Notes under the pieces: model-generated | Database searches by the model: none | Told to the model about the DNA's origin: nothing | The model's input: only the letters and a program-made list of their open reading frames with translations | Source of the DNA: Owenia fusiformis | Taxonomy: Eukaryota | Assembly (NCBI GenBank): GCA_903813345.2 | Contig: CAIIXF020000001.1 | Span: forward strand, 28,458,001-28,522,000 | Direction: 5' to 3' | Length of the DNA stretch: 64,000 nucleotides | Position numbers and translations under genes: made by a program | In this document: positions 19,950 through 49,893 of the stretch, piece after piece | Layout: each line of letters starts with the position of its first letter | Numbering within the stretch: position 1 is the stretch's first letter

Positions 19950-20809
19950 TAATGATGTACGAGTATATCTCAAATACTGCATAAAATTGTACGTTCTTTT
20001 TTATTAAACCCAGATGAGGCCATCGTCCAATAAATATAAAGTCTGAGGACTATAGGCCTACATCCTTTCAACACAGGTCCTCCGGATCTGGGTTCCGAAG
20101 ATGTAGAGTCTAACCTGGAGTATATGCTCTATATATTGTGAAAGAATATATCCCTAGACAAAATATATACTTACAGGGTAATAGATACGTTATAACGCAG
20201 TGAACGAATAGATAGTCGAGTTTTAGGTCCTAGTTTTATGCTCATCTAAGTATACTGATGTCGTCAGAAAAATCGTTCTTTTTTGTTTTTTTCAATATTT
20301 TATTCAACGCATTTCCAAAGATAATTATTATAAAAATACATGTTCAGAGGACAGATACTTTTCCTCCAGACAATTCTTATTTTCTTGTTATACACGTCCC
20401 CATGGTGAATTCTTCAGCCATTGTTTCAAAACAAAATAGATTAGGATGTACCATTAATAGATGCGTGTGACAACAAAAATTATTTGAAATAAGTTCCCAA
20501 TTTTTGAATTTTCGAACAAAAACAACTTTTTAATTAAAAAATTAAAAAAAGTAAGATAAATATTTTGCAATTTCAACGCACAGATTTTTCACTAATGATT
20601 TTCAACACGTTCACGGTACAGACAAAACACCTTTTTCTGTAGATTTTTGGGGCTCCAATGCCATTTTTTTTCAAACTTTCTATTATCATTAACCTTTTTG
20701 AATGGTTTATAAAATGCACTTGCCTGCTGATTGGAACCACAGGAAATAATGTCATTGAAAAATAGAATAAGTTTATTATTAACATGCTAACGAATGCACA
20801 AGGGTGAAG

Positions 20810-22246
20810 TTATTGCCATCCATCAAGTTTATACGGTTCTAAACAATCCAACATCTTCACTAGTGCAGCTGAATCAGGAACATTATGAGTTTTGAATTGC
20901 TCCCTTATGTATTTTATCCATGGTATCCACTCCTGTCTCCATTGAGGATGAGACGCTACACTATCAGAAAGTAGTTCCAATCTGAACATGTTCCGACAGC
21001 CTGCCATGTCAATTCGACCAGCAGTATCAACCATCGGGAAGTCAACATCTGGTAGTTTGGTACCTCTGTCATCCTTTACAGAGTCTGCATTATCCCACGC
21101 ATACTTAGTGTCATATATACGATGTAGGTTAGCAACAATTTCTCTGAAGCACTTGCCAATCTTGCTGGGTTCGTCAGATTGCTCATTAAGACATTTTTCA
21201 TAGTGACGTTTCACTGCAGTTGTCAGCATGTAGGTATCCGACCTCGGTGAGAACACCTCCGTCATGAAGTACTTCAACACGAACACAATCTGCCTATGGG
21301 CATCGTCAAGTCCTTGTTTATTAGCTGGTTTCTCGCAAATTGACATTGTCCAATGAAACGCTGAATCAGAAAAGTCACAATTCGAACAATGGTCTTGACG
21401 AATAGGGTCAACAGGTACCAGGATCAGTCTTCCATTCTCAGTGTGTTTATGGTGTACACAGAGGCACAGATCGACCTCAGTTGGACAAACGGGGGCCTTG
21501 AGTAATGTCACTGTAACAGAGGGACCAGTTGTGTCTACTGAAAACTTCTCATAATCATCTTTCCCGTTTATGTATTCAAGACATCTCATCACAGCCTTCT
21601 GGAAAACAACATAGACGTAAATACTAATTGAACCGGTCTTGGGATCGATCACTGGCAGTTCTTGTGATAGTTCATCACCGAGTTCAGTGTGGAGTTCTTG
21701 AAAAATAGCAATCAAAGCATCGGTTTTCAAGGTCACTTGTCCACTCTTTGTACCATGGATGTCACGTGTGTCGTTCGTGTCGATCTTACTATCCACGGAG
21801 AGTGCCCATAACAGAAGGAAATCAAATTCGTCAGGATTCATAATCTTCAAACCTTTATAGAAGCTACCAGATTTCACCATTTGTACATCAAAAATACCAG
21901 GGTACAACTCATGTAGTGTTTTAATGACATCGTGTACGAACGCTTCTACGTATTCTCGTTGTTGCTCCACGGCAGCATCGGTGTAGTTCACCCGGATCTT
22001 CTTGGCGACAAAGTCAATAAATTTAGCTAAACTCATGTTTTCAATCTCTCGTTGTTGTTCATCTTGGGTTGGGTTATCACCACATTTAGACCCACTTGCC
22101 GCTATTTGTTTAGAGTCGTGAATCGTTGCTTTCTCATTATCAGCATCCTCACATTTGATAGCTGCTTGTAGTTTGTCATGTAAACCATCTGTCTCAGGTT
22201 CAGTGTTCTTAGATTCACACCGGAGCCCTGTAATGATATTAGTCAA
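20810..22246 (-). CDS. cGAS-like receptor / Mab-21-family nucleotidyltransferase, copy 1 (5' end probably spliced; ORF begins with TTG)
   Basis: SGSFYKGLKIMNPDEFDFLL (GS..E-x-D), TGPSVTV, EVDLCLCV (third acidic residue), helical C-lobe IVFVLKY..TYMLTTAV..IGKCF. Confidence 0.85.
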   Translation of the reverse strand: MTNIITGLRCESKNTEPETDGLHDKLQAAIKCEDADNEKATIHDSKQIAASGSKCGDNPTQDEQQREIENMSLAKFIDFVAKKIRVNYTDAAVEQQREYVEAFVHDVIKTLHELYPGIFDVQMVKSGSFYKGLKIMNPDEFDFLLLWALSVDSKIDTNDTRDIHGTKSGQVTLKTDALIAIFQELHTELGDELSQELPVIDPKTGSISIYVYVVFQKAVMRCLEYINGKDDYEKFSVDTTGPSVTVTLLKAPVCPTEVDLCLCVHHKHTENGRLILVPVDPIRQDHCSNCDFSDSAFHWTMSICEKPANKQGLDDAHRQIVFVLKYFMTEVFSPRSDTYMLTTAVKRHYEKCLNEQSDEPSKIGKCFREIVANLHRIYDTKYAWDNADSVKDDRGTKLPDVDFPMVDTAGRIDMAGCRNMFRLELLSDSVASHPQWRQEWIPWIKYIREQFKTHNVPDSAALVKMLDCLEPYKLDGWQ

Positions 22247-22310
22247 TGTAAATTAAACAGAATCGTACACTTTTTAGTGAGTCGTCTAGCTTTGCTGATT
22301 TTATGCATTA

Positions 22311-23370
22311 CAGGGTGGGCCAATAAAAACTGGAACATTTTTCTATTTATTCAATTGTCTTTATTTTTGCAAATTCAGATAATGGTAAAGTGATTATTTG
22401 TGAAAATATCTCAGAAGATAAAAATATGAATGTATGATTATTTTTGGCTTGTCATGGTCATGATCTGTATTCTGCGTGTGTCATGAAACATTTCAAAATC
22501 TTCTCTGCTTGAAACATCCTGCTGAAAACACGGTATCTTTTATACCATACAATATGTACCCTTCAATTTCCATAAATTAAAACAAATGTAATTATCTCTA
22601 GGAGAAGCAAGACATGTCTCCCTTGGGTAATATAGCTTAATTGACCTCGTTTTTTTAAAAAAAACTGGCACAAGATGTCTCAAAACCTGTCATTTAAGCC
22701 ATGTATGACTGTCAAATACAGCTCTGAAACTGATTGTTCAGGTGGGCAGAGGTTCAGGAAACCCTTGTGTTAGGTAAAAAAAATTGGAACAGTTTTCTAT
22801 CTATTGTAACATTTTTGTTGGTCATGTATTATCTTCAATGCTTTAGAAAATTGAAAAACAATTCATTGACAGCTTGTGTAAATATGAATATACAAGCTCA
22901 ACATTTAATTACTGAACATGTCCTCCACCCACCTGAACAATCAGCCGAGCTGTATTTGGCAGTCGTGAATGGCTTAAACGATATTGTGCCAGTTTTGAAA
23001 AAAACTGAGGTCAGTTAAGCTATATTATCCAAAGGAGACATGTCTAGCTTCTCCTAGAGATAACTACATTTGTTTTAATTGATAGAAATTGTGTTGAACC
23101 CATTTGAAGGGCATATATTGTATGGTATGAGATACTGTATCTTTCAGCATTGATGTCTCAAGCAGAGAAAATTTGGAAATTTTTCATGACGCACACAGTA
23201 TACAGATAATGACCGTGACAAGCCAAAAATAATCATACATACATATTTTTATCTTTAACATTTTCACAAATAATCATTTTATCATTATCTGATTTTTTGT
23301 TGACTGAACTGCAATAATAAAGAAAATTTAGTAAATAGAAAAATGTTCCAATTTTTATTGGCCCACCCTG
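22311..23370. mobile_element. Tc1/mariner-type foldback MITE
   Basis: TA|CAGGGTGGGCCAATAAAA ... TTTTATTGGCCCACCCTG|TA; inverted arms cover most of the element; absent from the paralogous site near 34950. Confidence 0.9.
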
Positions 23371-23396
23371 TACATCAATATTCAATGTATTTGATC

Positions 23397-24425
23397 CAAG
23401 GGAAAGATCAATACCCGGTGATTTCAGCGGGAAGTGGCGTTTCGTTCAGTGGATGAGCTGCGCGCGCACGCATAAATGTGATTATAAGCTTTGAACCGAG
23501 ACAAGGGAACCGAGAGATATTCACGATTGATATGCACATTTTTGATTGTGCCATTGCTTTTCCATTGCTCAATCCATGTATTGATAGAAGTAACATTAAT
23601 AATGCAGATTGGTTTACTTTCAATACATGGCAGACACTACATATCGGTCTATTAAATACCAGTTTGTGCCTTAGATAGTTTTATATTTCCATCCACGGCC
23701 TGGAGCCTGGGTGTGTTTGTCTCTTGTGTTTGTGCTTGTGCATGGACTTCTAATCACTAGCAGAATATAACATGATGCAAACTCGACATTATAACTCATG
23801 CTGTAACATTTTGACTTTGCTGGAAAACAATAGGAATTATTTTTCTTGCCAATCAATCATGAATCACAATCAAAATTTCACTATGATCAATCAGGCAATG
23901 GTCCAAATCATGAAGTTATAACATTATATGATATTCAGCAAGAAGTCCGGTAGAAATACAGAATATTTAAACATCAAAGCTGAAAGTTAAAAGCTAATCT
24001 GTCAATTTTCTGTCTGCAAAAGAGCGTTTACATTTGACACAATAACAGACTGAGTCTTTGAAATCTAGGATTCCCCAGGAAAATATGACGTCATACTAAT
24101 TAGCATAAGGATTTCCCTATTGGTATGGGTCGAGCCTTGTTCGAAAACACAATCCATAAATACATGCTAATTTCTAAGGAGATAGGAAGTGTATAACGTG
24201 TTTATCGATTTTGTTCAAAGATTTAATCAATTATCAAATTGTTTAAGTGGATAAAGTGGTAACACTTGCTTCAATTCATAGCGTAATCGACGGATAGAAA
24301 CTGACCGAATTCCCGATATCCTACCCCGTATTACTGTAGGCTATAAGCACAGTGACCTACAGAGGGCGCTATCACAAACAAGTACTGCACGAACCGATAA
24401 ATTCCCGGGTATTGTAACGCCCTTG
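23397..24425 (+). mobile_element. Non-autonomous CAAGGG-ended element with 7-bp TSD (P-superfamily-like), copy 1
   Basis: Ends CAAGGGAAAGATCAATACCCGG / CCGGGTATTGTAACGCCCTTG; TSD TTTGATC; the paralogous empty site has a single TTTGATC at 34983-34989. Confidence 0.9.
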
Positions 24426-24552
24426 TTTGATCTACTCGGCCTTCTTTAAAGAAGTATCATGTGCATGGGTTACTGTAAATGAAATAGACAAAATATCAAG
24501 GAAATGCTGAACAAATATGAATATACAGTCGTTGATATGATTTGGATAAAAC

Positions 24553-25347
24553 CTACATGGATTTTATAAATGAAAACATAGCATTGATACCATGTGATCT
24601 TTCTTTGTTCTTCGCCTGATGGATCAACTCGGTGACCAGTTTTGTTGTTCTTCTATAAGACACCAATAATCTCGCCTTTGTCATGAAAAGATCAGTTACT
24701 AAGGCAGTCGTCATATCTTCTCTTGGATGCCACATTTTTTCTATCGAGGCAATCTTCGCTAGAAGTTCGGGCCTGCGGTTACGTAAGCTTTGAAATTTGT
24801 CATCCAATCTATTAAATTGTCCCATTGCCTGTGCAAGTAACTGTTGTTTTGTTTCAGCTGATACTGTTGTATCTTTAATATCATCACGTGCTTTTGTTTC
24901 TTTTAAGGGATCCTTTTGCGCAATATCAGTGGCATTTGGGGCATCTTTCATACTCGCGTCCTTATTAGCAGATGTAATGTCGAGTAACTGTCCAATTGGA
25001 GATTCTTTTGAGAATGTTAGAAACTGTAGGTCAAGTAATAATGAAGACGATAGTTCGGAATCGAAGCCTTTGTCTTCGGCCCCATACACAGTATCTCTGA
25101 ACGACCGAACGAGATCGTAATTAAGGTCCCCGAGTTGCGCTAGTTCGTGAAGTTTGAAGTATACGTCGCTTGTCAACATGCTTCTTTGAAGATTCCTTAG
25201 CATGTTTGGAAAAATCGAATTCGCTGCCTCTTCCCGAAGGAGTTGTTTGAAATAAGTTGTATTCTTCCTTGCTATTAATGCTTTTAAAGCCTGTCGCCAT
25301 AAATCATCAATTATGGCCTTTTTGATTGTCTGTTCCACATTCTCCAT
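24553..25347 (-). CDS. Unknown helical protein (or N-terminal exon of the cGLR), copy 1
   Basis: Open frame conserved with the paralog at 35080-35889; ATG at 25347 follows a TATTTCCAG acceptor-like site; no family recognised. Confidence 0.7.
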   Translation of the reverse strand: MENVEQTIKKAIIDDLWRQALKALIARKNTTYFKQLLREEAANSIFPNMLRNLQRSMLTSDVYFKLHELAQLGDLNYDLVRSFRDTVYGAEDKGFDSELSSSLLLDLQFLTFSKESPIGQLLDITSANKDASMKDAPNATDIAQKDPLKETKARDDIKDTTVSAETKQQLLAQAMGQFNRLDDKFQSLRNRRPELLAKIASIEKMWHPREDMTTALVTDLFMTKARLLVSYRRTTKLVTELIHQAKNKERSHGINAMFSFIKSM

Positions 25348-26043
25348 CTTATTTTGAAATAAATCCTGGAAATATAGAGATTTCTCCATGACCTTCTTAC
25401 TGTGATTAGGATATGTGAAAGCTGCTTAAAAGATTATACTTTGCTAATCTTCCTGACCAAAAATAGAACATCCGAGTCATTCATTTTTCACAAAATATTT
25501 GGCCCACCGGTTCCGTTTTCCTGACGATGTTGAACCAGCCCATGTAATGGTCCTAATGATACTCTCCAAATTCTTCAATTTTTAAAATATAAATTATCAA
25601 TGTTAGCCTTATGTTAGCACACATAATATTGCGTTTCTGTAGACTGTTTAATATATCCATGTGGTTCCAATATATTCACGATGATCAATGATTTCGAAGT
25701 CACAGTTTGACAGCGATTTGTTTAACTTACATAGACTGTACAGATGTGGAGAGCATGACCAAATGTTTCCACATTTTGGCGCGGGACTGCACAGTAAAAT
25801 AAAACTGATATAAATGTGCTAATATCATTTATATACTACAGTATACGCACCCTGATTAATTTACTTCCTGGTTGCTACCATATATTGTACCCTTATTTGA
25901 ACTCAATACAGGTAAACAAGTTTTGGTCTATTGAGATGCATGTAAAATTAACAATACTTTCTCTCAATCCCAATCCATTGAATCCTGTTTTTATTCTGAT
26001 CGTGCAGTCCTAGAATGAAGAAATGATCCTGGCCTAGTTGTAG

Positions 26044-27052
26044 CAAGGGCGTTACAATACCCGGGAATTTATCGGTTCGTGCAGTACTTGTTTGTGATAG
26101 CGCCCTCTGTAGGTCACTGTGCTTATAGCCTACAGTAATACGGGGTAGGATATCGGGAATTCGGTCAGTTTCTATCCGTCGATTTCGCTATGAATTGAAG
26201 CAAGTGTGACCACTTTATCCACTTAAACAATTTGATAATTGATTAAATATTTAAACAAAATCGATAAACACGTTGACAAATTGACAGATTAGCTTTTAAC
26301 TTTCAGCTTTGATGTTTAAATATTCTGTATTTCTACCGGACTTCTTGCTGAATATCATATTATGTTATAACTTGATTTGGATCATTGCCTGATTGCTCAT
26401 TCTGAAATTTTGATTGTGATTCATGATTGATTGGCAAGAAAAATAATTCCTATTGTTTTCCAGCGAAGTCAAAATGTTACAGCATGAGTTATAATGTCGA
26501 GTTTGCATCATGTTAAATTCTGCTAGTGATTAGAAGTCCATGCACAAGCATACACATAAGAGACAAACACACCCAGGCTCCAGGCCGTGGATGGAAATAT
26601 AAAACTATTTAAGGCACAAACTGGTATTAATAGACCGATATGTAGTGTCTACCATGTATTGAAGGTAAACCAATCTGCATTATTAATGTTTCTTCTATCA
26701 ATACATGGATTGTGCAATGGAAAAGCAATGGCACAATCAAAAATGTGCATATCAATCGTGAATATCTCTCGGTTCAAAGCTTATTTCCAACAGAATCGTG
26801 TCAAAATATGTGTCTGAGTAACAGTTATACATTATAAGATCGCAAACTCTTACCAATTATCAGCCGAATGGCTCATTTTCAACGAAATGTCCTTAAGACA
26901 ACAGCCCTGGGTCGCGCCTGAGACCAAAAACTATTTCAAATAGCCCTCCCCTAATTATATTGGATAATCACATTTATGCGTGCGCGCGCAGCTCATCCAC
27001 TGAACGAAACGCCACTTCCCGCTGAAATCACCGGGTATTGATCTTTCCCTTG
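26044..27052 (-). mobile_element. CAAGGG-ended element with 7-bp TSD, copy 2 (inverted relative to copy 1)
   Basis: Same termini and internal sequence as 23397-24425 apart from large indels; TSD GTTGTAG. Confidence 0.9.
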
Positions 27053-27803
27053 GTTGTAGTCCTATTCACAAACTCAGCCTTTTGGCTCATATCGGTAAGA
27101 GGCTATGAACGAAAAGGATATTGCTATACATTATTAATAATAGCAAATATTGATTTCTGGATCTTTAGAAGCACCCGAGATGTGATGAGGACACAGATTT
27201 TATTAGTCCGCCTATAATATAATTCCAACTTTTTGTTCATAATTGTAAGTAGTTGCAGTCTCTGACAATCCTAGTACTGTATCAGCTATCACGAAACATG
27301 ATCTTCATTGTATGGAGGAGACACGCACCATCTACAACTTGTAGAAAACAAAAATTTAACTTGAACAAAACATGTTGAACACATTTGTAATTTACTTCTT
27401 AAATGTACACGGTGGGTAGTTCAGAGAATTCCCGAATAAAATGTATGTTGGGACATGATCCCATAAGGTAATTATTTTACGACATGCACAATTTACCTTT
27501 TTATATACATTTTCTGACATATACATACATGTTATACAATATAGGCTTTTCATTCAGACATTTTTCACAGATACTTTCGTCTATTATATATCTTTTATTG
27601 ACTCTTTAGATGTCATATCATGACATATTAGTCACTAAGGTAGAGCAGTTCTTCCCATTGTCGAGTTGAAGAACTGGTATCTTTATCCTGGCTAGAACCA
27701 TAGACAATTCTAGCCAGCGCCAGCCTTTTATCGAGTTAGCAGCACTCTAGTAATCGCCAGTATAGGTCAGCAGTCATAGGTCAAAGACAAATCACAAGAA
27801 GTG

Positions 27804-27902
27804 CTGTGACCTGGGTTTGAACCCAAGACCTCTACTTTTTCAGCCTGAAGCCAGACTTCCTGCTTTTCAGACCAATGCCTTAACCACTAGGCCAACCCGG
27901 CG
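27804..27902 (-). mobile_element. tRNA-derived SINE head or tRNA(Phe)-like pseudogene
   Basis: Minus strand GCCGGGTTGGCCTAGTGGTTAAGGC (A box, D arm) ... CTGAAAA loop present twice ... GGGTTCAAACCC (B box); acceptor and anticodon stems pair poorly. Confidence 0.55.
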
Positions 27903-28192
27903 ACCACATTTGAAGTGCTTCCGGTATCAGGACTAAATTAAGCAAGGGTGTCTTTAATGCCCGAGATAAGTCGATGTACTGGACGGAAGCGCATGAGCTA
28001 CCTAAAGACAAGATGATGTGAAGCCGAGGCTCTAGTCAAGCTCGATAATGATGTATCTTAAGATTTAGCTTCGTGTTTCATGCATAATTGAATGGAAATA
28101 GAAAACCAAAATCCAACGGCGCTTGTCTTTATCAAAACCCTTTGCTTATCAAAGGGGGCACGTTCAAACGCCATCTTATGTTCAAGGGTTAA

Positions 28193-31100
28193 TAGTATAG
28201 TAGGAACAAGGGGTTCCCATGCACCCATAAGGTGTGAATAAGTTACATACATTTTTGTAATCCCTAGGGTGTCTATTTAATGAATTCATTTGTTAACATT
28301 GCCAACTAATGTCCCATAGTACTTTTATGGCGGCATTCAGTTACCATGGTTACGCATCTTTAGACATCTTACCTTGGTATCTTAAATCATTTGTAGCTCT
28401 GTCATTATTTGGTCTATAGAAATGATATTGGTACCAAATTGAATCTCGTTAAATTTCCAATAAATTTCTGATATTCAATAATGCAAATTATCTAATTTGC
28501 ATAAATTATGACGTCATCAATCTATTTTTGGTTCAGAATTTCCAACTATAGCAACGTATCTATTAGAACTGAGGCCGTATGGCAAAATTTCTGAAAGGTT
28601 TTGTCCTTTATTCTATTAGTAGAAGCTTTAAGCAACATAAAAGTGAAAACAGATTCAAAATTGAATCAGTATTACGAAAGTTATGTAACTTTCGAAGTAA
28701 CTATCGTGAATGTCATTATTTGACAATAATATACATACGTCTTACCTTGGAGTCTTGAATCAATGTAGCTTCGCCATTATTTGGTCTATAGAGATGATAT
28801 TGGTATCTGATTAAACCTTATTAAATTTACTATATGGTTACAATATTCAGTTATGCAAATTAGCTAATTTGCATTAATTGTGACGTCATCAATCCATTTT
28901 TGGTTCAGAATATCCTAGTATAGCAACATATCTATTAGAACTGAGGCCGTATGACAGAATGTGTGCATAGTTTTGTCCCTTATTTGATGAGTGGAAGATA
29001 TAAGCAACATTGAAGAGACAACAAATCTTCAAAATTGGATCAGAATTAACAAAATTATCCAGCTTTGGAGGCAGCTACTGTGAACGTCATTGTTTGACAA
29101 TTATAAAAAGAATATTAAATTAACAAAAAAAGTAACAACCATTATATTATAGTTGTTTCAATCTTATTGAGTAAAAATGTGCATGTATTGAACTGAACTA
29201 ATAAGTATGTGGAAAGGTTACATGCATTTTGACTATCATTCACAGGGGTCAAAACGGTTATCTCGACCCTGTATATTAAAGATCCAATCTTATAATTTAC
29301 CATGCACTTTCAATGATTCATATAAATAGTATACATATAGTCTGCTTTTCATCATATTCTTCATATTCTTGATTCTTAAAGCATCTGAAGTATATAGCAT
29401 GATTAGAAGTGAAGATGATTCATCATATGGTTTATGTAATATTTCTAACATTTCAGATGCTATGGTAACATCACTTGGTAATGAGGTTTTTACATTTCAC
29501 GTTCTTAATGAGTTAAAAGAAAGTTATTCTCCCTTTGCTTTAGAGATAAATAGTTGCATGAATTTGTTTAAAAAAATTATAACTTAATTTAACCTCCTCC
29601 TGACAGCCCCCATATTTGAAGATTTTGGTGAAACCTGGCAAAATACATTAATAATTAGGTTCCAGAAGCCCCCAGAAGCTATATGATGGGCCCCATTGGC
29701 CCCAAGAATCTATACAGGGGCCCCAAGTGGCCCCCAGAAGGTATACGATGGCCCCCAGAAGCTATACAAGGGCCCATGGAAACTATACTGTGGTCTCCAG
29801 AAGCTATATGGTGACCCCCAGTGGCCCTCAGAAGCTATATGATGGCCCCAAGAAGCTAAATAGTGGCCCCCAGGAGCTATACGGTGGCACCCAGAAGCTA
29901 TACAGGGAACCCCAGTGGCCCAAAGAAGCTATACGATGGCCCCCAGAAGCTATACAGCAGCCCCCAGAAGCTACAAGATGGCCCCCAGAATCTATATGAT
30001 GGCCCCCAATGGCTCCCAGAAGCTATACAGGGCCCCCAGTAGCCCCTAGAAGCTATACGGTGGCCCCCAAAGCTATATGGTGGCCCATTGGGGGACACTG
30101 TATAGCTTCTGGAGGCCATCGTATAGCTTATGGGGGCTACCGTTCAGTTTCTGTAGGCCCTTGCATAGCTTCTGGGGGCCATCGTATAGCTTCTGGGAGC
30201 CACTGGGGGCCCCTGTATAGCTTCTGGGGGCTACAGTATAGTTTCTGTAGGCCCTTGCATAGCTTCTGGGGGCCATCGTATAGCTTCTAGGAGCCACTGG
30301 GGGCCCCTGTATAGCTTCTGGGGGCTACAGTACAGTTTCTGCAGGCCCTTGCATAGCTTCTGGGGGCCATCGTATAGCTTCTGGGAGCCACTGTGGACCC
30401 CTTTATAGCTTCTGGGGGCCACCATATAGCTTTCGGGGCCACTGGGGGTCACCGTATAGCTTATAGGGGCTACTGGGGGCCCTTTATAGCTTCTGGGAGC
30501 CATTGTGTAGCTTCTGGGAACCACCATATAGCTCCTGAGGGTCACTATTTAGCTTCTTAGGGCCATCATATAGCCTATGAGGGCCACTGGGGGCCACCGT
30601 ATAGCTTCTAGGGGCTACTGGGGGCCCTTCACATCTTCTGGGAGCCATTGGGGGCCATCATATAGATTCTGGGGGCCATCATGTAGCTTTTTGGGGCTCC
30701 TGTATAGCTTCTGGGGGCCTTCGATTAGCTTCTTGGGGCCACTGGGGTCCCCTGTATAGTTTCTGGGAGCCACCATATAGCTCCTGGGGGCCACTAATTA
30801 GCTTCTGGAGGCCATCATATAGCTTCCGAGGGCCACTGGGGGCCACCTAGAGCTTCTGGAGACCATAGTATAGTTTCTGGGGGCCCTTGTATAGCTTCTG
30901 GGGGCCATCGTATAGCTTCTGGGGGCCCCTGTAAAGCTTCTGGGGGCCACCGTATAGCTTTTTGGGGCCACTGGGGGCCCCTGTATAGCTTCTGGGCGCC
31001 ACCGTATAGCTCCTTGGGGCCACAGGGTTTCCTGTATAGCTTCTGGGAGCCACCATATAGCTCCTGGGGGCCACTAATTAGCTTCTGGAGGCCATCATAT

Positions 31101-32960
31101 AGCTTCCGAGGGCCACTGGGGGCCACCTAGAGCTTCTGGAGACCATAGTATAGTTTCTGGGGGCCCTTGTATAGCTTCTGGGGGCCATCGTATAGCTTCT
31201 GGGGGCCCCTGTAAAGCTTCTGGGGGCCACCGTATAGCTTTTTGGGGCCACTGGGGGCCCCTGTATAGCTTCTGGGCGCCACTGTATAGCTCCTTCGGGC
31301 CACAGGGTTTCCTGTATAGCTTCTGGGAGCCACCGTATAGCTCCTGGGGGCCACTATTCAGCTTCTGGGGGCCAACATATAGCTTCTGTGGAGCACAGTA
31401 TAGCTCCTGGGGGCCACTTGGGGCCCCTGTATAGATTCTTGGGGCCACTGGGGGCCATCATATAGCTTCTGGGGGCTTCTGGAACCTAATAATTAATGTA
31501 TTTTGCCAGGTTTCACCAAAATCTTCAAATATGGGGCTGTCTGGGGGGGGGGGGTTAAATTAATTAAGTTATAATTTTTCTAAACAAATTCATGCAACTA
31601 TTTATCTCTAAAGCAAAGGGAGAATAACTTCCTTTTTACTCATTAAGAACGTGAAATGTAAAAACCTCATTATCAAGTGATGTTACCATAGCATCTGAAA
31701 TGTTAGAAATATTACATAAACCATATGATGAATCATCTTCACTTCTAATCATGCTATATACTTCAGATGCTTTAAGAATCAAGAATATGAAGAATATGAT
31801 GAAAAGCAGACTATATGTATACTATTTATATGAATCATTGAAAGTGCATGGTAAATTATAAGATTGGATCTTTAATATACAGGGTCGAGATAACCGTTTT
31901 GACCCCTGTGAATGATAGTCAAAATGCATGTAACCTTTCCACATACTTATTAGTTCAGTTCAATACATGCACATTTTTACTCAATAAGATTGAAACAACT
32001 ATAATATAATGGTTGTTACTTTTTTTTGTTAATTTAATATTCTTTTTATAATTGTCAAACAATGACGTTCACAGTAGCTGCCTCCAAAGCTGGATAATTT
32101 TGTTAATTCTGATCCAATTTTGAAGATTTGTTGTCTCTTTAATGTTGCTTATATCTTCCACTCATCAAATAAGGGACAAAACTATGCACACATTCTGTCA
32201 TACGGCCTCAGTTCTAATAGATATGTTGCTATACTAGGATATTCTGAACCAAAAATGGATTGATGACGTCACAATTAATGCAAATTAGCTAATTTGCATA
32301 ACTGAATATTGTAACCATATAGTAAATTCAACAAGGTTTAATCAGATACCAATATCATCTCTATAGACCAAATAATGGCGAAGCGACATTGATTCAAGAC
32401 TCTAAGGTAAGAAGTAATGTATATTATTGTCAAATAATGACATTCACGATAGCTGCCTCGAAAGTTACATAACTTTCGTAATACTGATTCAATTTTGAAT
32501 CTGTTTTCACTTTTATGTTGCTTATACCTTCTACTAATAGAATAAAGGACAAAACCTTTCAGAAATTTTGCCATACGGCCTCAGTTCTAATAGATACGTT
32601 GCTATAGTTGGAAATTCTGAACCAAAAATAGATTGATGACGTCATAATTTATGCAAATTAGATAATTTGCATAATTGAATATCATAAATTTATTGGAAAT
32701 TTAACGAGGTTTAATTTGGTACCAATATCATTTCTATGGACCAAATAATGACAGAGCTACAAATGATTTAAGACACCAAGGTATGATGTCTAAAGATGCG
32801 TAACCATGGTAACTGAATGCCGCCATAAAAGTACTATGGGACATTAGTTGGCAATGTTAACAAATGGATTCATTAAATAGACACCCTAGGGATTACAAAA
32901 ATGTATGTAACTTATTCACACCTTATGGGTGCATGGGAACCCCTTGTTCCTACTATACTA
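28193..32960. mobile_element. 4.8-kb non-coding foldback element with TAG..CTA ends and TAA TSD (Academ-like)
   Basis: TAA|TAGTATAGTAGGAACAAGGGG ... CCCCTTGTTCCTACTATACTA|TAA; 28193-~29720 is a near-perfect inverted copy of ~31425-32960; each arm holds an internal ~360-bp tandem duplication. Confidence 0.85.
29660..31485. repeat. GC-rich minisatellite (core GGCCCCCAGAAGCTATAC, ~21/33-bp units) that inverts near 30090
   Basis: CCCCAGAAGCTATA units up to ~30080, then TATAGCTTCTGGGG units; higher-order 280-bp duplication (30815-31094 vs 31095-31374). Confidence 0.9.
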
Positions 32961-33006
32961 TAATAACTGTTTAAAATAGGTGATGGCAGAAACAATATAA
33001 TAGTAA

Positions 33007-33260
33007 ATCAATGCCTATACTTTCATTGTTGACACAAACAATCTAATGGTTGATTACACAATCAATGCCAATACTTTCATTGTTGATACAAAAAATTTAA
33101 TGGTTAATGACACAAACAATGTCAATACTTTCACTGCTGGTGCAAACAATATCATGGTTGATGTCACAATCAATGGCAATGCTTTCATTATTGATACAAA
33201 CAATATCATGGTTGATGACTTAATCAATGTCAATACTTCACTGTTAAGACAAACAATATA
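33007..33260. repeat. 54-bp tandem repeat, ~4.7 diverged copies
   Basis: Units A[TA]CAATGnC[AT]AT[AG]CTTTCA..TG..ACAAACAAT..ATGGTTGAT start at 33007, 33061, 33115, 33169, 33223. Confidence 0.8.
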
Positions 33261-33465
33261 ATTTTGTTTTTGTACATTTGTTTAACTACAATTAAATTGT
33301 GTTACAATACTTTTTACAGCATATTTAATTTTTCATCATTATCTCTTTAAATGGGTTATTCTGGGACTTTTGGTGCAGTTGCCTGCTTATGGGAACATAG
33401 GAAAATGTCAGTAAAAAATAGAACGAGTTTGTTATTAACATGCTAACCAATGCACAAGGATGAAT

Positions 33466-34911
33466 TTATTGCCATCCATCAGGTTTATACGGTTGCAAAT
33501 AATTCAACATCTTCACTAGTGCAGCTGAATCAGGAACGTTATGAGATTTGAATTGCTCCCTAATGTCTTTTATCCATGGTATCCACTCCTGTCTCCATTG
33601 AGGATGAGACGCTACACTATCAGAAAGTAGTCTCAATCTGAGCATGTTCCGACAGCCTGCCATGTCAATTCGACCAGCAGTATCAACCATCGGGAAATCA
33701 ACATCTGGTAGTTTGGTACCTCTGTCATCCTTTACAGAGTCTGCATTATCCCACGCATACTTAGTGTCATATATACGATGTAGGTTAGCAACAATTTCTC
33801 TGAAGCACTTTCCAATCTTACTGGGTTCGTAAGATTGCTCATTTAGACATTTTTCATAGTGACGTTTCACTGCAGTTGTCAGCATGTAGGTATCCGACCT
33901 CGGGGAGAACACCTCCGTCATCAAGTACTTCAACACGAAAACAATCTGTCTATGGGCATCGTCAAGTCCTTGCTTATTAGCTGGTTTCTCACAAATTGAC
34001 ACTGTCCAATGAAACGCTGAATCAGAAAAGTCACAATTCGAACAATGGTCTTTACGAATAGGGTCAACAGGCACCAGGATCAGTCGTCCATTCTCAGTGT
34101 GTTTATGATGTACACACAGGCACAGATCGACCTCAGTGGGACAGACGGGGGCCTTAAGTAATGTAACTGTAACAGAAGGACCTGTTGTGTCTACTGAAAA
34201 CTTCTCATAATCATCTTTCCCGTTCATGTATTCAAGACATCTCATCACAGCCTTCTGGAAAACAACATAGACGTAAATACTAATCGAACCGGTCACGGGA
34301 TCGATCACTGGAAGTTCTTGTGATAGTTCATCACCGAGTTCAGTGTGAAGTTCTTGAAAAATCGCAATCAAAGCATCGGTTTTCAAGGTTACTTGTCCAC
34401 TCTTTGTACCATGGATGTCACGAGTGTCTTTCGTGCCGATCTTTTTAAGTGTATCCACGGAGAGTGTCCATAATAGAAGGAAATCGAATTCGTCAGGATT
34501 CATAATCTTCAAACCTTTATAGAAGCTTCCAGATTTCACCATTTGTACATCAAAAACACCAGGGTACAACTCATGAAGTGTTTTAATGACATCGTGTACG
34601 AACGCTTCTACGTATTCTTTTTGTCGTTCCACGTTAGCGTCAGAGTAGTTCACCCTGGCCTTCTTGGCGACGAAGTCCACAAAGGTAGCTAAACTCATAT
34701 TTTCAAGCTCTTGCTGTTGTTCATCTTGTGTTGGGTTATCATTACATTCAGCTTCACATGCCGCTATTTGTTTATGGTCATGATTTGTTGCTTTCTCATT
34801 ATAATTACCCTCACATTTAATGGCTGTCTGTAGCGTGTCTTGTAAGCCATCTGTCCCAGTAGGTTCAGTGTTTTTGGATTCACACTGGAGCCCTGGAATA
34901 ATATTGGTCAT
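33466..34911 (-). CDS. cGAS-like receptor / Mab-21-family nucleotidyltransferase, copy 2
   Basis: 481-aa ORF with ATG start; same GS/EFD/VD motifs; core nearly identical to copy 1, N-terminal ~95 aa more diverged. Confidence 0.85.
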   Translation of the reverse strand: MTNIIPGLQCESKNTEPTGTDGLQDTLQTAIKCEGNYNEKATNHDHKQIAACEAECNDNPTQDEQQQELENMSLATFVDFVAKKARVNYSDANVERQKEYVEAFVHDVIKTLHELYPGVFDVQMVKSGSFYKGLKIMNPDEFDFLLLWTLSVDTLKKIGTKDTRDIHGTKSGQVTLKTDALIAIFQELHTELGDELSQELPVIDPVTGSISIYVYVVFQKAVMRCLEYMNGKDDYEKFSVDTTGPSVTVTLLKAPVCPTEVDLCLCVHHKHTENGRLILVPVDPIRKDHCSNCDFSDSAFHWTVSICEKPANKQGLDDAHRQIVFVLKYLMTEVFSPRSDTYMLTTAVKRHYEKCLNEQSYEPSKIGKCFREIVANLHRIYDTKYAWDNADSVKDDRGTKLPDVDFPMVDTAGRIDMAGCRNMLRLRLLSDSVASHPQWRQEWIPWIKDIREQFKSHNVPDSAALVKMLNYLQPYKPDGWQ

Positions 34912-35079
34912 TGTAAATCAAACCACAATCACAGGAGCTGATTTTATGCAGTGTATCAATATTTGAAATGCACAACATGTAATTTGATCTACTCTTCTTA
35001 TTATCTGAGCTTCGGAAAATAAAATAGACAAAACATCAAGGAAATGCTGAACGAATATTAACATAGGTGATGGTATGAT

Positions 35080-35889
35080 TTAAATCAAGCCTACATGAAT
35101 TTCATCAATGAGAATAAAGCATTGATACCATGTGTTTTTTTCCTTTTTCTTCGCCTGTTGGATCAACGCCGTCACCAGTTTTGTTGTTCTTCTATAAGAC
35201 ACTAATAATTTCGCCTTTGTCATGAAAAGATCAGTTGTCAAGGCAGTCGTCATATCTTCTCTTGGATGCCACATTTTTTCTTTCGAGGCTATTTCCTCTA
35301 GAATTTCGGGTCTTTGCTCACGTGAGCTTTGAAATGTGTCATCTATTGTATTTAATTGTCCCATTGCCTGTGCAAGTAACTGCTGTTTTGTTTCAGCTGA
35401 TACTGTTTTATCCTTGATATCATCACATCCTTTTATTTCTTCTTGGGGATCCTTTTGCGCAATATCAGTGGCATTCGGGACGTCTTTCATACTCGCGTCA
35501 TTATTTGCAGATGTTATGTCGAGTAACTGTCCAATTGGAGATTCTTTTGAGAGTATCAGAAACTGAAGGTCAAGTAATGTTGAATTCCTTGGTTCGATGT
35601 CAACCCCTTTGTCTTCAACCCCATACACGGTATCTCTGAAAGACTGGACGATATCGTAATTAAGGTCACCGAGTTGCGCTAGTTCGTGAAGTTTGAAGTA
35701 TACATCGCTTGCCAACATGCTTCTTTGTAGATTCCTCAGCATGTTTGGAAAAATCAAATTCTCCATTTCTTCTTGCAGGAGCTGTTTGAAGTGAGTTGTA
35801 TTCTTCCTGACTATTAATGCTGTTACGGATTGTCGCCATGAATCATCCATGGCTTCTTTGATCGTCGCCTCTACATTGTCCGTCTCCAT
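35080..35889 (-). CDS. Unknown helical protein (or N-terminal exon of the cGLR), copy 2; +1 frameshift near the 3' end
   Basis: Paralog of 24553-25347; ATG at 35889 after TTATCTTCCAG; a 7-T run at 35135-35141 carries one extra base relative to copy 1. Confidence 0.7.
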   Translation of the reverse strand: METDNVEATIKEAMDDSWRQSVTALIVRKNTTHFKQLLQEEMENLIFPNMLRNLQRSMLASDVYFKLHELAQLGDLNYDIVQSFRDTVYGVEDKGVDIEPRNSTLLDLQFLILSKESPIGQLLDITSANNDASMKDVPNATDIAQKDPQEEIKGCDDIKDKTVSAETKQQLLAQAMGQLNTIDDTFQSSREQRPEILEEIASKEKMWHPREDMTTALTTDLFMTKAKLLVSYRRTTKLVTALIQQAKKKEKNTWYQCFILIDEIHVGLI

Positions 35890-36368
35890 CTTCAACCGGA
35901 AATCTGGAAGATAAGCCTAAACATATAACTCTTTATTTCGAATATGTGAAAGCTGTGCTTCTTATAACACGATGCGCAAAAACGTCCTTATTCTGATTCA
36001 ATGGTAATTTTTTCATCATACACTGTTTACGATTTTCATCTGATTCCACACAATATATGGGGCATAACCATAACTAAAATATCCCTAAATTGTGACTTCA
36101 AATATTACCTTGAAATGGACGGTTTACATACATTCATACACCAGTCGTCAGTTAGTTAATCTTCACTCATTCCAATATCGCTATAAAATGATAAATATGT
36201 AATAATACCATTATACAATTGATTGCTGCACTCTCTGCAAAACTATGGTTGAAATCCATGTAGTTATAGAAAAATATAAAATATGGACATTTTTTGCTCA
36301 TCCTGTAAATACACATTCTGATAAATTTTCTTCCTGGTTGTTGTTTACATGCTTATAGTGGCCCTTAA

Positions 36369-36599
36369 GGTCAGGGTGCACTTTAATAAAACTTCATGAC
36401 CAAGTGCTATTTTCAGATAAACATAACTCATTCTACACATCATCTGATCATCTACATCTTTCATTCTTGCACAAAAGATGCATTAGTGTACCTAGACTAT
36501 TAATTGAGGGTTGATAATTCTTCAGAATGTTTGAATAACTAGAATATTCAGTGGTTTACTTTTCAAAATTGCAAAAAAATTCTACAGTGCACCCTGACC
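36369..36599. mobile_element. Short TTAA-type (Kolobok-like) MITE
   Basis: TTAA|GGTCAGGGTGCACT ... AGTGCACCCTGACC|TTAG. Confidence 0.75.
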
Positions 36600-37433
36600 T
36601 TAGCTGAACTGAATGTAAGATTATTTAGTCAAAACACGTAGTATTGTTAAATGTTTATGATCAGGTAGAAAACCGTTTTTGTTCAATTGAGATGAATGTA
36701 AATTGGCAAAGTTCAAACAATCATTTCTCTAATCTCACCCTTTTGAATCCTCGCATTTATCCAAACTTCCTACTTCCTGTTCAATACATCTTGAGAAAAA
36801 AGTCCGTGGAAGAAACAAGAGATTGCTCCGTTTTAGATGTGATAAGGACATGGATTTTGTGAGTCCGCCAAAAATATAGTTCAGACATTTTGTTCAAACG
36901 TGGACTTTGTCAGTCTGTCAGCAGTCTCTGACACTTCTACTAGCGATCATCAAGCATTAATTAGTTGAAAATTGTATATCGTATTGGGGAAGTAGTATAA
37001 GTAGATGCTACTCTGCCAGCACGAGCACTTAAAAATGTCTTTGGCGATCTTCTAGACCGTCAAATCTCGGATCACCAACGATCTTACGCCTGGGGACTTA
37101 TTATTCATTTAAAAACTATGTGTTGTCGAAGGTCAAGGAAAGGAGGTCAACGACACATTTCTAGGTCGAAGTCACCTGTAAGGTCTATTTCAGGATATAG
37201 AATTCAATGGAAAGCTAATGCTTTTGATATGTCCCAGACAAAAATCAATCAAATATGAAAATATTTTTCGCACTGTAGTATTATTCTTTGGACACACATG
37301 GATAATAATGATAATTATTTACTGTCACAATTTGTAAACAAAAAAATCTTGAGATATCATAGTACATGTATATTGTATATCGAGAATTCATCAATGACAT
37401 GACATGAATCAAAGATGTCAGTAAAATCTAGCA

Positions 37434-38108
37434 TTAGTGTGTGTTTGATTTATTAGTGAGATCACAATAAACAATGACACTATCAATCCAACCGTAGTCC
37501 TTAACGTAAGATGTCTTGGGCAATCTTTCAATCAACTCCCATATCGGATTATCTCGACATGCCTTGATGACGGGAGCATTATTAACGTGTATCTCTCCCA
37601 AACAACCTTCATACCCGATTTCGTCTGCTAGTTCAGAGTAGAGTCGGTTCAATAATTTTATACAGCCCCTACCCCTGTATTCTTGGGTTACTATAAAATT
37701 GCTTCCAGCTAGAACGGGGTTTGAAGCTCTACTCAAACGCGACGGATAGATCGTGATCCCTCCAATTAATCTATCAGCATCTTGGTCAACTAGCGAAAAT
37801 ATTTGACCGCGGCTATGTTTTTCTTTGAAATGATCAAGGGAAAGAAAGTCATCGTGTCCATAACCTTGACCTCGGTGCATTGCGCCGTGAAATTGTGTAT
37901 AGATGTCACCTATTTGCTTCTCAGTTGCTGAATCAACCAGTACATTTGTCCCGTCTTTTAAGACAGTGTGTTTTGGAAGATTTGGAAGTTTCTTGTAGTC
38001 AGGAATTCTATGAAGGATCCGTCTTTGTATTATATTCACGAGGTGATGCCCTGGACGGTTCACAATCAGCCGCTGTGTGGAAGGATGACTGGCGATTCTC
38101 AATAACAT
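37434..38108 (-). CDS. GNAT N-acetyltransferase (Mpr1/Spt10-like), intronless, possible mitochondrial presequence
   Basis: Motif A NFIVTQEYRGRGC; LADEIGYEG..IHVNNAP..LPK..GWIDSVIVYCDL; the N-terminal ~37 aa are Arg/His-rich with no acidic residues. Confidence 0.8.
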   Translation of the reverse strand: MLLRIASHPSTQRLIVNRPGHHLVNIIQRRILHRIPDYKKLPNLPKHTVLKDGTNVLVDSATEKQIGDIYTQFHGAMHRGQGYGHDDFLSLDHFKEKHSRGQIFSLVDQDADRLIGGITIYPSRLSRASNPVLAGSNFIVTQEYRGRGCIKLLNRLYSELADEIGYEGCLGEIHVNNAPVIKACRDNPIWELIERLPKTSYVKDYGWIDSVIVYCDLTNKSNTH

Positions 38109-49722: not shown

Positions 49723-49893
49723 CAAGGGCGTTACAATACCCGGGAATTTATCGGTTCGTGCAGTACTTGTTTGTGATAGCGCCATCTGCAGGTCACTGTG
49801 GTTATAGCCTACATTTATGCGTGCGCGCGCAGCTCGTCCACTGAACGAAACGCCACTTCCCGCTGAAATCACCGGGTATTGATCTTTCCCTTG
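49723..49893 (-). mobile_element. CAAGGG-ended element with 7-bp TSD, minimal 171-bp copy 3
   Basis: Both family termini joined directly; TSD GTTCTGG. Confidence 0.9.

What the first reader, a model, noticed from the sequence alone, without database searches (positions are those of the whole stretch)
20810..35889. Duplicated cassette: unknown helical ORF tightly coupled to a cGAS-like nucleotidyltransferase
Seen: the same order occurs twice on the minus strand, a ~265-aa ORF of no recognisable family followed by a Mab-21/cGLR ORF. The gap is ~170-180 bp in copy 2 and ~210 bp in copy 1 once two transposon insertions are subtracted. Established: cGLRs are metazoan second-messenger synthases homologous to bacterial CD-NTases. 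Inference: the upstream ORF is either a co-duplicated partner (regulator or effector, operon-like) or a previously undescribed N-terminal domain of the receptor.
Basis: partly seen in the sequence, partly recalled or inferred. Interest (0 to 1): 0.85.

Follow-up and report, generated by a model that had tools for sequence, protein, structure and literature searches.

The report
Duplicated cGAS-like gene with orphan N-terminus
The two "cassettes" are tandem copies of one spliced annelid gene, in which an all-helical region found nowhere else forms the front end of a cGAS-like immune enzyme; it is not a two-gene partnership.

Summary
On the minus strand a 269-278-aa ORF is followed by a Mab-21/cGAS-like ORF, and this occurs twice (blastn 85% and 91% identity). 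By the names of the database hits the DNA is from the annelid Owenia fusiformis.

The two ORFs are exons of one gene. Both copies keep the same GT donor and AG acceptor. A public gene model of copy 1 (P0002) reads straight across that junction. For copy 2, contigs of two RNA-like runs skip the 236-nt intron, and the DNA run does not. The window's copy 2 has one extra base just before the donor, which breaks the frame. All four contigs that cover the site (three runs) are one base shorter and in frame.

The protein is about 725 aa: an N-terminal region of about 252 aa, an acidic linker of about 64 aa, and an NTase core with GS, ExD and D catalytic residues.

The N-terminal region has no relatives outside these two loci in 1.84 billion representative proteins. 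It is under purifying selection (dN/dS 0.33). A weak BAG-like stretch is only a lead. Both structure models were too poor to use.

This is a new variant of a known kind, of moderate interest.

The parts
25731..25814 (-). Copy 1: upstream exon of the public partial model P0003, probably 5' UTR
   Evidence: Residues 1-28 of P0003 are encoded here exactly. Residues 29-126 map to 25365-25072. The segments between the acceptor and the ATG differ by 4 nt between the copies (18 against 14 nt), so they are not codon-preserving. I infer that this stretch is non-coding.
24591..25365 (-). Copy 1 exon A: the N-terminal helical region. The CDS most likely starts at the ATG at 25347 and gives 252 aa up to the donor.
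   Evidence: The acceptor TTTCCAG|GAT sits at 25365 and the donor CACATG|GTATCA has its last exon base at 24591. The Met at 25347 aligns with Met 1 of copy 2.
22228..24590 (-). Copy 1 intron (2363 nt, GT..AG), holding two inserted repeats at 22309-23372 and 23393-24434
   Evidence: P0002 reads across this intron.
20810..22227 (-). Copy 1 exon B: acidic linker (22037-22227) plus the Mab-21/cGLR core (20813-22036) and the stop codon
   Evidence: The frame is open from the acceptor. The copies differ here by a 3-nt indel that keeps the frame. Pfam Mab-21 E = 1.1e-06. Linker pI is 4.58.
21821..21868 (-). Copy 1 catalytic motif: G57-S58, 11 residues, then E70-F-D72-F
   Evidence: The motif aligns with KSGSYY..DEFDF of PDB 8gjw 'cGAS-like receptor 1'.
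21470..21472 (-). Copy 1: putative third catalytic Asp (D189, in V-D-L)
   Evidence: It lies inside the Pfam Mab-21 match, residues 59-198. Its assignment as the third acidic residue is my inference from the motif.
24721..24867 (-). Copy 1: weak BAG-like stretch, residues 161-209 of the N-terminal region
   Evidence: hhalign against six BAG units of P0005 gives probability 71% and score 35.2 over 49 columns. None of 200 column shuffles reach that score. Pfam BAG does not match.
35129..35903 (-). Copy 2 exon A: the N-terminal helical region, with the CDS starting at the ATG at 35889
   Evidence: The acceptor CTTCCAG|ATT sits at 35903. X2 depth falls from 968 in bin 35766-35902 to 6 in bin 35903-36039.
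35135..35137 (-). Copy 2: one extra base in an A-run of the window sequence, which shifts the frame just before the donor
   Evidence: Copy 2 has one base more than copy 1 in the alignment. The X1 DNA contig lacks base 35136 and has another letter at 35135. The one X2 contig and two X4 contigs carry 6 letters where the window has 7.
34893..35128 (-). Copy 2 intron (236 nt, GT..AG). It contains the ATG at 34911 that opens the 481-aa ORF.
   Evidence: X2 and X4 have zero depth in bin 34944-35080, where the DNA run X1 has 41.8. The joint 34893/35137 is in X2 and X4 and not in X1.
33466..34892 (-). Copy 2 exon B: linker (34699-34892), cGLR core (33469-34698) and the stop codon. The transcript continues below 33300.
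   Evidence: X2 depth is 555 in bin 33300-33436. The catalytic residues G57/S58, E70/D72 and D191 lie at 34483-34530 and 34126-34128.

Best explanation
Each 'cassette' is one multi-exon gene of Owenia fusiformis, and the gene is present as a tandem duplicate. Exon A encodes an all-helical region of about 252 aa that belongs to no known family. Exon B encodes an acidic linker of about 64 aa and a divergent Mab-21/cGAS-like nucleotidyltransferase core. Splicing joins them in frame into one cytosolic protein of about 725 aa. That much is shown. What follows is inferred. The core keeps the GS and Glu/Asp/Asp catalytic residues, so it probably makes a nucleotide second messenger when it binds a ligand, as other cGLRs do. 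The N-terminal region is under purifying selection and is not basic, unlike the N-terminal tail of human cGAS (that the human tail is basic is recalled). It most likely acts as a protein-protein module that controls where, with what partner, or in what oligomeric state the enzyme fires, like the TPR, ankyrin and death domains appended to a minority of cGLRs. The frameshift in the window's copy 2 is an assembly error or a rare allele.
For: The donor and acceptor are conserved in both copies. In copy 1 the donor leaves 1 base and the acceptor supplies 2, so the junction is in frame. Public model P0002 (CAH1774116.1) contains exactly that junction, and P0001 uses the same junction in copy 2. In one search, X2 (one contig, depth 678) and X4 (two contigs) join 34893 to 35137. 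Both runs have zero depth in the intron bin, while the DNA run X1 has depth there and no joint. The joint contig of X2 is of copy-2 type: it differs from the window at 2 letters in 35137-35271, where the copies differ at 12 sites. The X1, X2 and X4 contigs are all one base shorter than the window at the A-run, which restores the frame. The 63-64 codons between the acceptor and the first Met of the core are open in both copies, and the one indel is 3 nt long. dN/dS between the copies is 0.33 for the N region (bootstrap 0.21-0.53), 0.31 for the linker and 0.20 for the core. Pfam Mab-21 is above its cut-off in both copies. The GS...EFD stretch aligns to solved cGLR and cGAS chains: 14 of 17 weak PDB profile hits are so named. 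G57, S58, E70, D72 and D189/D191 are present. The N region has no relatives beyond these two loci: 5 proteins at E <= 0.001 among 1.84 billion, of which 3 are these loci and 2 are repeat proteins, and 2 of 827 candidates.
Against: The window's own copy 2 is out of frame at this junction. The public annotation splits copy 2 into two models (P0001 and P0006) and gives only partial models for copy 1. The joint contigs have only 27-29 letters on their shorter side, under the 31 that the tool advises. X2 and X4 are RNA only by the tool's guess. The one certain RNA run, X22 (raw reads), had almost no reads on the gene. No reads were laid on copy 1, so its splicing rests on the sequence and on P0002, and I did not check how P0002 was made. 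Both AlphaFold models were poor (pLDDT 46.4 and 37.7). The spacer before the third acidic residue is 114/116 residues, against the 50-90 of the published motif. Nothing here tests enzyme activity or what the N region binds.
Confidence: 0.82

Rival explanations
1. These are two separate genes, or an operon-like pair: the upstream ORF is a free-standing partner (regulator or effector) of the cGLR and was duplicated along with it.
For: As written, the window's copy 2 gives a 257-aa product that stops just after the junction (P0001), and a separate 386-aa cGLR model exists (P0006). An ATG at 34911 opens a 481-aa ORF.
Against: The ATG at 34911 lies in the spliced-out intron, and no contig of X2 or X4 extends beyond 34893 into the intron. 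In copy 1 that ATG is TTG. All four contigs covering the A-run (X1 one, X2 one, X4 two) are in frame. Copy 1 is in frame, and P0002 is a fused model. Animals do not normally translate a second ORF from a spliced mRNA (established knowledge).
Confidence: 0.06
2. The frameshift in copy 2 is a real segregating allele: a null, or a 'split' allele that yields the N-terminal region alone. Copy 2 would then be on its way to becoming a pseudogene.
For: The window sequence carries the extra base, and P0001 was annotated from it. Alleles at this locus are highly mosaic.
Against: None of the 3 runs that cover the site shows the window's version. The site is a homopolymer run, where long-read assemblies often err (established knowledge). 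Copy 2 shows dN/dS well below 1 against copy 1.
Confidence: 0.2
3. The C-terminal third of the N region (residues ~161-209) is a BAG-type helical unit that binds the Hsp70 nucleotide-binding domain. The chaperone would then hold or release the enzyme.
For: phmmer found a diatom protein with ubiquitin-like and BAG repeats (P0005, E = 6.6e-05 library-wide; Pfam BAG 6e-25). hhalign against its six units gives probability 71% and score 35.2. None of 200 column shuffles reach that score (maximum 22.4), and the reversed sequence scores 13.3.
Against: Pfam BAG does not match either copy at E <= 1. The PDB profile search found nothing at E <= 10. The library E-value sums five near-identical repeats, so it is inflated. 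The match covers only two of the three BAG helices. The structure model is too poor to judge a three-helix bundle. The Atlas gave no hit.
Confidence: 0.12
4. The Mab-21 core is not a signalling enzyme. It would be a structural or regulatory Mab-21 protein, and the whole gene would have a non-immune role.
For: The core is very divergent. It has no PDB sequence hit at E <= 0.01 and no relatives outside the locus in the word-indexed search (2 of 2780 candidates). The spacer to the third acidic residue is longer than the published cGLR motif allows.
Against: All catalytic positions (GS, E, D, D) are kept in both copies, and dN/dS is 0.20. There is a weak match of the C-terminal helical part to the PADLOC oligonucleotide-cyclase model (E = 0.0039). 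That inactive Mab-21 proteins such as MAB21L1 have lost these residues is recalled, not tested here.
Confidence: 0.15

Closest known systems
Animal cGLRs with appended domains (TPR, ankyrin, death domain, multi-cGLR), per Li et al. 2023 (PMC9980059, passages seen)
   Same: A Mab-21/cGAS-like NTase core is fused in one polypeptide to a non-catalytic module that presumably mediates interactions.
   Different: The appended region here matches none of those domain families, nor any Pfam family. It is confined to two loci of one annelid. Table S2 of that paper, which lists the rarer architectures, could not be seen.
Human cGAS
   Same: The GS...ExD...D catalytic layout is shared, and the N-terminal part of the core aligns weakly to cGAS chains. 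Both have a long extension in front of the core.
   Different: The cGAS extension is about 150 residues and disordered (passage of PMC8410604) and basic (recalled). Here the extension is about 316 residues and predicted helical (low confidence). Its pI is 8.9 in copy 1 and 4.95 in copy 2, and an acidic linker follows.
The solved chains PDB 8gjw ('cGAS-like receptor 1') and 7lt2 ('Mab-21 domain-containing protein')
   Same: These are the best-named PDB profile hits. 8gjw shares the same KSGS...DEFDF motif.
   Different: The E-values are only 0.034 and 0.13, and only about 50-65 residues align. Insect cGLRs lack an N-terminal extension (passage of PMC8410604).
BAG-domain co-chaperones (Pfam PF02179)
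   Same: Over 49 columns the profile resembles helices 2-3 of BAG units.
   Different: Pfam BAG does not match. A first helix was not aligned. No structural support could be obtained.
Bacterial CBASS operons (CD-NTase plus effector or regulator genes)
   Same: The enzyme superfamily is homologous. There is a weak PADLOC cyclase match.
   Different: This is not an operon. The two ORFs are exons of one spliced eukaryotic gene.

Membership tests
Pfam Mab-21 nucleotidyltransferase domain (PF03281) | HMM score above the curated gathering cut-off | tested here: met
   The scores are 29.4 and 28.1 bits against a cut-off of 24.1. Residues 59-198 match model positions 1-134 of 197.
cGLR, criteria of Li et al. 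2023 (PMC9980059, passage) | Active-site motif h[QT]GS X8-20 [DE]h[DE]h X50-90 h[DE]h | tested here: inconclusive
   GS (57-58), an 11-residue spacer, E-F-D-F (70-73) and V-D-L (D189/D191) are present. Two details depart from the motif. The residue before GS is Ser, as in KSGS of PDB 8gjw. The second spacer is 114/116 residues rather than 50-90.
cGLR, criteria of Li et al. 2023 | Homology across both the NTase core and the C-terminal helix bundle | tested here: inconclusive
   The core criterion is met. For the C-terminal part there is only a weak PADLOC 'Cyclase' match: E = 0.0039, residues 311-387 of the 471-aa linker plus core.
cGLR, criteria of Li et al. 2023 | Predicted structural homology to known cGLR/CD-NTase enzymes (AlphaFold2) | tested here: inconclusive
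   The model from the two-sequence alignment has mean pLDDT 37.7. It is too poor for a fold search, so none was run.
cGLR (function) | Ligand-triggered synthesis of a nucleotide second messenger | not testable with these tools
   This needs recombinant protein and TLC or LC-MS.
BAG domain (PF02179) | Match to the family HMM | tested here: not met
   BAG was not listed for either copy at E <= 1.
BAG domain (PF02179) | Three-helix bundle with Hsp70-contacting residues on helices 2 and 3 | tested here: inconclusive
   hhalign probability is 71% over 49 columns that correspond to helices 2-3. The model pLDDT of 46.4 is too low to judge the fold. Contact residues were not tested.
Two-gene cassette or operon-like partner system | Each ORF is translated as its own product from its own start codon | tested here: not met
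   The ORFs are joined by splicing. The ATG of the downstream ORF in copy 2 is intronic, and copy 1 has no ATG there.

The most novel reading that the evidence does not exclude
The N-terminal region is a domain born in the Owenia lineage that includes a BAG-like Hsp70-binding unit. This cGLR would then be held or released by a chaperone, which would link proteotoxic or infection stress directly to nucleotide second-messenger signalling, a mode of cGLR control not described so far. The mosaic alleles and unequal dS between the exons would then reflect fast diversification of a new immune sensor.
Probability: 0.08. Interest if true: 0.7.

Novelty: new variant of a known kind. Interest (0 to 1): 0.35.

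Why it matters
The finding turns an apparent partner gene next to an animal cGAS-like receptor into a correct gene model. That model is one protein of about 725 aa, which the public annotation holds only in pieces. It adds an architecture to the minority of cGLRs that carry extra domains. This one has an orphan helical region that is under selection, lineage-restricted and of unknown fold. If the region gates the enzyme, it would give a new handle on how cGLRs other than cGAS are controlled. The locus also shows how a single homopolymer base in an assembly can split an immune gene in two.

Tried and rejected
Structure and fold:
- AlphaFold2 of the N region gave pLDDT 46.4 and of the core 37.7. 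Both are too poor, so I ran no fold search.
- Complex prediction of the core with the N region returned no verdict, with both runs scoring 0.00. This is no evidence either way.
- The ESM Atlas gave no usable hit for the whole N region or for residues 150-252.

Sequence and family searches:
- PDB sequence searches found nothing for the N region, as a single sequence or as a profile at E <= 10.
- PDB found nothing for the core as a single sequence at E <= 0.01.
- PADLOC and NCBIfam gave nothing for the N region above any cut-off.
- The search for longer (fused) relatives of the upstream ORF scored none of 2521 candidates.
- P0004, a 3836-aa insect repeat protein with E = 5e-14, is rejected as a summation artefact. 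Each of its 37 stretches scores 4.7 bits or less.
- The N region has no internal repeat.

Genome, earlier notes and RNA:
- The genome search 'own' holds no genome for this window.
- Earlier notes of this scan had nothing by place or by sequence.
- Rfam and tRNA scans of the window found nothing.
- No RNA holder was listed by the look-up of sequencing runs.
- The raw-read RNA run X22 gave almost no reads on the gene.
- I classed 33 of the read differences shown (40 rows shown, 61 more not shown) as synonymous or not: 23 synonymous and 10 not. I do not count this as independent evidence, because 31 of the 33 simply carry the copy 1 base.

Literature:
- Searches for cGLR + annelid (2 papers), Owenia fusiformis + cGAS (5 held, 2 listed), cGLR + N-terminal extension (5 held, 4 listed) and Mab21 + STING + Annelida (1 paper) found no paper on this gene.
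- I saw only the listings, plus passages of PMC9980059 and PMC8410604.
Full report
**What is there.**
- Copy 1 has a 278-aa ORF (24553-25389) upstream of a 408-aa ORF (20810-22036).
- Copy 2 has a 269-aa ORF (35080-35889) upstream of a 481-aa ORF (33466-34911).

Both downstream ORFs pass the curated cut-off of Pfam Mab-21 (29.4 and 28.1 bits against 24.1). The upstream ORFs match no Pfam family above its cut-off. The duplication is unambiguous: blastn aligns 20715-22258 with 33374-34923 at 91.4% and 24477-25349 with 35017-35885 at 85.2%. At protein level the identities are 197/250 and 382/410.

Between the two aligned blocks copy 1 has about 2125 extra bases. These are two insertions:
- a self-complementary element at 22309-23372;
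- a ~1-kb element at 23393-24434, which recurs inverted at 26037-27055 and as a short copy at 49716-49897.

The database hits name the organism as the annelid Owenia fusiformis, and the composition (about 36% GC) fits an animal genome.

**One gene, not two.** The protein similarity between the two upstream ORFs stops about 13-17 residues before their stop codons, but the DNA similarity continues. At that point both copies have CACATG|GTATCA, a plausible donor. Both copies also share an acceptor, TTACAG|GG in copy 1 and TTCCAG|GG in copy 2, upstream of the first Met of the Mab-21 core.

In copy 1 the donor leaves one base and the acceptor supplies two, so the exons join in frame. The 63-64 codons between the acceptor and that Met are open in both copies. 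They differ by a single 3-nt indel, and in copy 1 there is no ATG where copy 2 has its ORF start.

Two public gene models agree with this junction:
- P0002 (CAH1774116.1, partial, 460 aa) reads ...KERSH-G-LRCESK..., which is the predicted junction of copy 1.
- P0001 (257 aa) uses the same junction in copy 2 and then runs into a stop after three more residues.

I did not check how those models were made.

**RNA evidence for copy 2.** I laid one DNA-like run (X1), two RNA-like runs from different studies (X2, X4) and one raw-read RNA run (X22) on 33300-37400.
- X2 and X4 cover both exons. X2 depths are 401-2502 and X4 depths 2-50.
- Both have zero depth in the intron bin 34944-35080 and in most intergenic bins, whereas X1 covers everything.
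- A joint from 34893 to 35137 is seen in X2 (one contig, depth 678) and X4 (two contigs), and not in X1. So the joined form is not present as DNA in X1, the one DNA run laid.
- No contig of X2 or X4 extends into the intron, so the ATG at 34911 is not in the mature RNA.

There are four limits.
- The shorter side of the joint is 27-29 letters, below the 31 the tool advises.
- X2 and X4 are RNA by the tool's guess, although their depth pattern behaves like RNA.
- X22 gave almost no reads on the gene.
- I had one lay only, so copy 1 was not tested with reads.

**The frameshift in copy 2.** The window has one base more than copy 1 in an A-run just before the donor. This puts exon B out of frame and explains why the annotation split copy 2 into P0001 and P0006.

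Where the window has seven letters before the last exon base, the X2 contig and both X4 contigs carry six, in two allelic versions. The X1 DNA contig lacks base 35136 and has another letter at 35135, at full depth. So none of the three runs that cover the site shows the window's version, and all four contigs read in frame (...K-P-H-G-L-Q-C... or ...K-Q-H-G...).

The X2 joint contig is of copy-2 type. It differs from the window at 2 letters in 35137-35271, where the copies differ at 12 sites. I read the extra base as an assembly error or a rare allele.

**Gene model.**
- Copy 1: an upstream exon at about 25731-25814 (from P0003), exon A 24591-25365, intron 22228-24590, and exon B 20810-22227.
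- Copy 2: exon A 35129-35903, intron 34893-35128, and exon B from 34892 down past 33300.

The segments between the 5' acceptor and the ATG differ by 4 nt between the copies. They are therefore probably untranslated, and the start is the Met shared by both copies. The product is about 725 aa: 252 + 1 + 63/64 + 408/410.

**Is the N-terminal region real coding sequence?** Between the copies, dN/dS is 0.33 for the N region (bootstrap 0.21-0.53), 0.31 for the linker (0.12-0.80) and 0.20 for the core (0.12-0.34). The N region is therefore under purifying selection. dS is uneven at 0.34, 0.50 and 0.17.

Of the 33 coding differences among the 40 rows that one search showed (61 more rows were not shown), 31 carry the copy 1 base. 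X1's depth on those contigs (105-111) is about twice that of contigs of 39-66 elsewhere on the stretch. This points to gene conversion between the copies and to mosaic alleles. For that reason I do not count the 23:10 synonymous to non-synonymous split of those differences as independent evidence.

**What the N-terminal region is.** It has no detectable relatives.
- The exhaustive phmmer search of 1.84 billion representatives found 5 proteins at E <= 0.001. Three are models of these two loci.
- The fourth, P0004 from an insect, is a summation of 37 repeats of 4.7 bits or less each.
- The word-indexed search found 2 of 827 candidates, both from this locus, and none of 2521 longer candidates.
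- PDB, PADLOC, NCBIfam and the Atlas gave nothing.

AlphaFold predicts an all-helical chain with a gap at about residues 134-163, but at pLDDT 46.4. There is no internal repeat.

The one lead is the fifth hit, P0005, a diatom protein with a ubiquitin-like start and BAG repeats (Pfam BAG 6e-25). A profile of its six units aligns to residues 161-209 with hhalign probability 71% and score 35.2. None of 200 column shuffles reach this (maximum 22.4), and the reversed sequence scores 13.3. Against it, Pfam BAG itself does not match, only two of the three helices align, and the hit was picked from a huge library with its E-value inflated by repeats. I put the BAG reading at about 0.12.

**What the core is.** The motif G57-S58, an 11-residue spacer, E70-F-D72-F, and then V-D189-L (D191 in copy 2) is present in both copies. 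A profile of the two copies finds 17 PDB sequences at E <= 10. Of these, 14 are named cGAS, cGAS-like receptor 1 or Mab-21 domain protein. All align on the GS...EFD stretch, and none is better than E = 0.034. The C-terminal helical part weakly matches the PADLOC oligonucleotide cyclase model (E = 0.0039).

By the criteria of Li et al. 2023 (passage) the motif is present, but its second spacer is 114/116 residues instead of 50-90. The structural criterion could not be judged (pLDDT 37.7). The protein is thus a member of Pfam Mab-21 and very probably an active cGLR, but a divergent one. The word-indexed search found no relative outside the locus (2 of 2780 candidates).

**How it most likely works.**
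- Shown: one spliced gene, duplicated in tandem, encoding an N region, a linker and a cGLR core.
- Inferred: the core makes a nucleotide second messenger on ligand binding.
- Inferred: the N region is not basic in copy 2 (pI 4.95; 8.9 in copy 1) and is followed by an acidic linker (pI 4.2-4.6), so it is not a cGAS-like DNA-binding tail. It is more likely a protein-interaction or autoregulatory module.

The complex prediction between the N region and the core gave no verdict.

**Comparison and novelty.** A passage of Li et al. says 87% of animal cGLRs have no appended domain. It names TPR, ankyrin and multi-cGLR fusions among the rest, and a figure legend adds ankyrin and death-domain fusions (passages). 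An appended domain is therefore not new in kind. This one is an orphan, lineage-restricted and under selection. Four literature searches found no paper on it (listings only), and the supplementary tables of Li et al. could not be seen. I rate it a new variant of a known kind, with interest 0.35.

Noticed in passing
window 28192-32961: A large inverted repeat lies between the two gene copies. Its arms total about 1.4 kb and are 98-99% complementary. It encloses about 1.8 kb of 21-nt-period tandem repeats (29668-31477), which raise GC to 50%.
   Followed up: no
window 36362-36602: A ~240-bp element with terminal inverted repeats (TAAGGTCAGGGTGCAC ... GTGCACCCTGACCTTA), MITE-like. The summed contig depth is 26,000-84,000 in the DNA run and 10,000-46,000 in an RNA-like run, and raw RNA reads run off both ends into other sequence.
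   Followed up: partly
window 23393-24434 and 26037-27055 (also 49716-49897): Two copies of one ~1-kb non-coding element, 96-100% identical and in opposite orientation, flank exon A of copy 1. A ~180-bp derivative made of its two ends lies at 49716-49897.
   Followed up: partly
window 33505-34422 (copy 2 core exon): Contigs of other individuals laid here carry the copy 1 base at 31 of 33 listed differences, in different mosaics in X1 and X2. X1 depth there is about twice that of contigs elsewhere on the stretch. dS is 0.17 in the core against 0.34 in exon A. Together these suggest ongoing gene conversion between the copies.
   Followed up: partly
window 33541 (copy 2): The public-type model P0006 ends at ...QFKSH, 24 residues before the ORF's own stop. 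RNA-like contigs run on through the stop, so the model's end looks like an artefact.
   Followed up: no
window 33006-33275: Four or five tandem copies of a 54-nt unit lie just downstream of copy 2.
   Followed up: no
window 9586-11217 (+): A 543-aa open frame matches Pfam Mutator-like transposase (E = 2.3e-10).
   Followed up: no
window 2805-3737 (+), 19311-19949 (+), 37434-38150 (-): The neighbouring open frames carry NHL repeats, a VWA domain and a GNAT acetyltransferase domain. No STING-like ORF was seen among the frames of 130 aa or more, of which 12 of 15 were scanned against Pfam.
   Followed up: no
window 61068-63998 (+): A 977-aa open frame runs off the window end with no Pfam match, in a stretch with AT skew 0.41. 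Long open frames also lie on the opposite strand there, which suggests low-complexity or repeat sequence.
   Followed up: no
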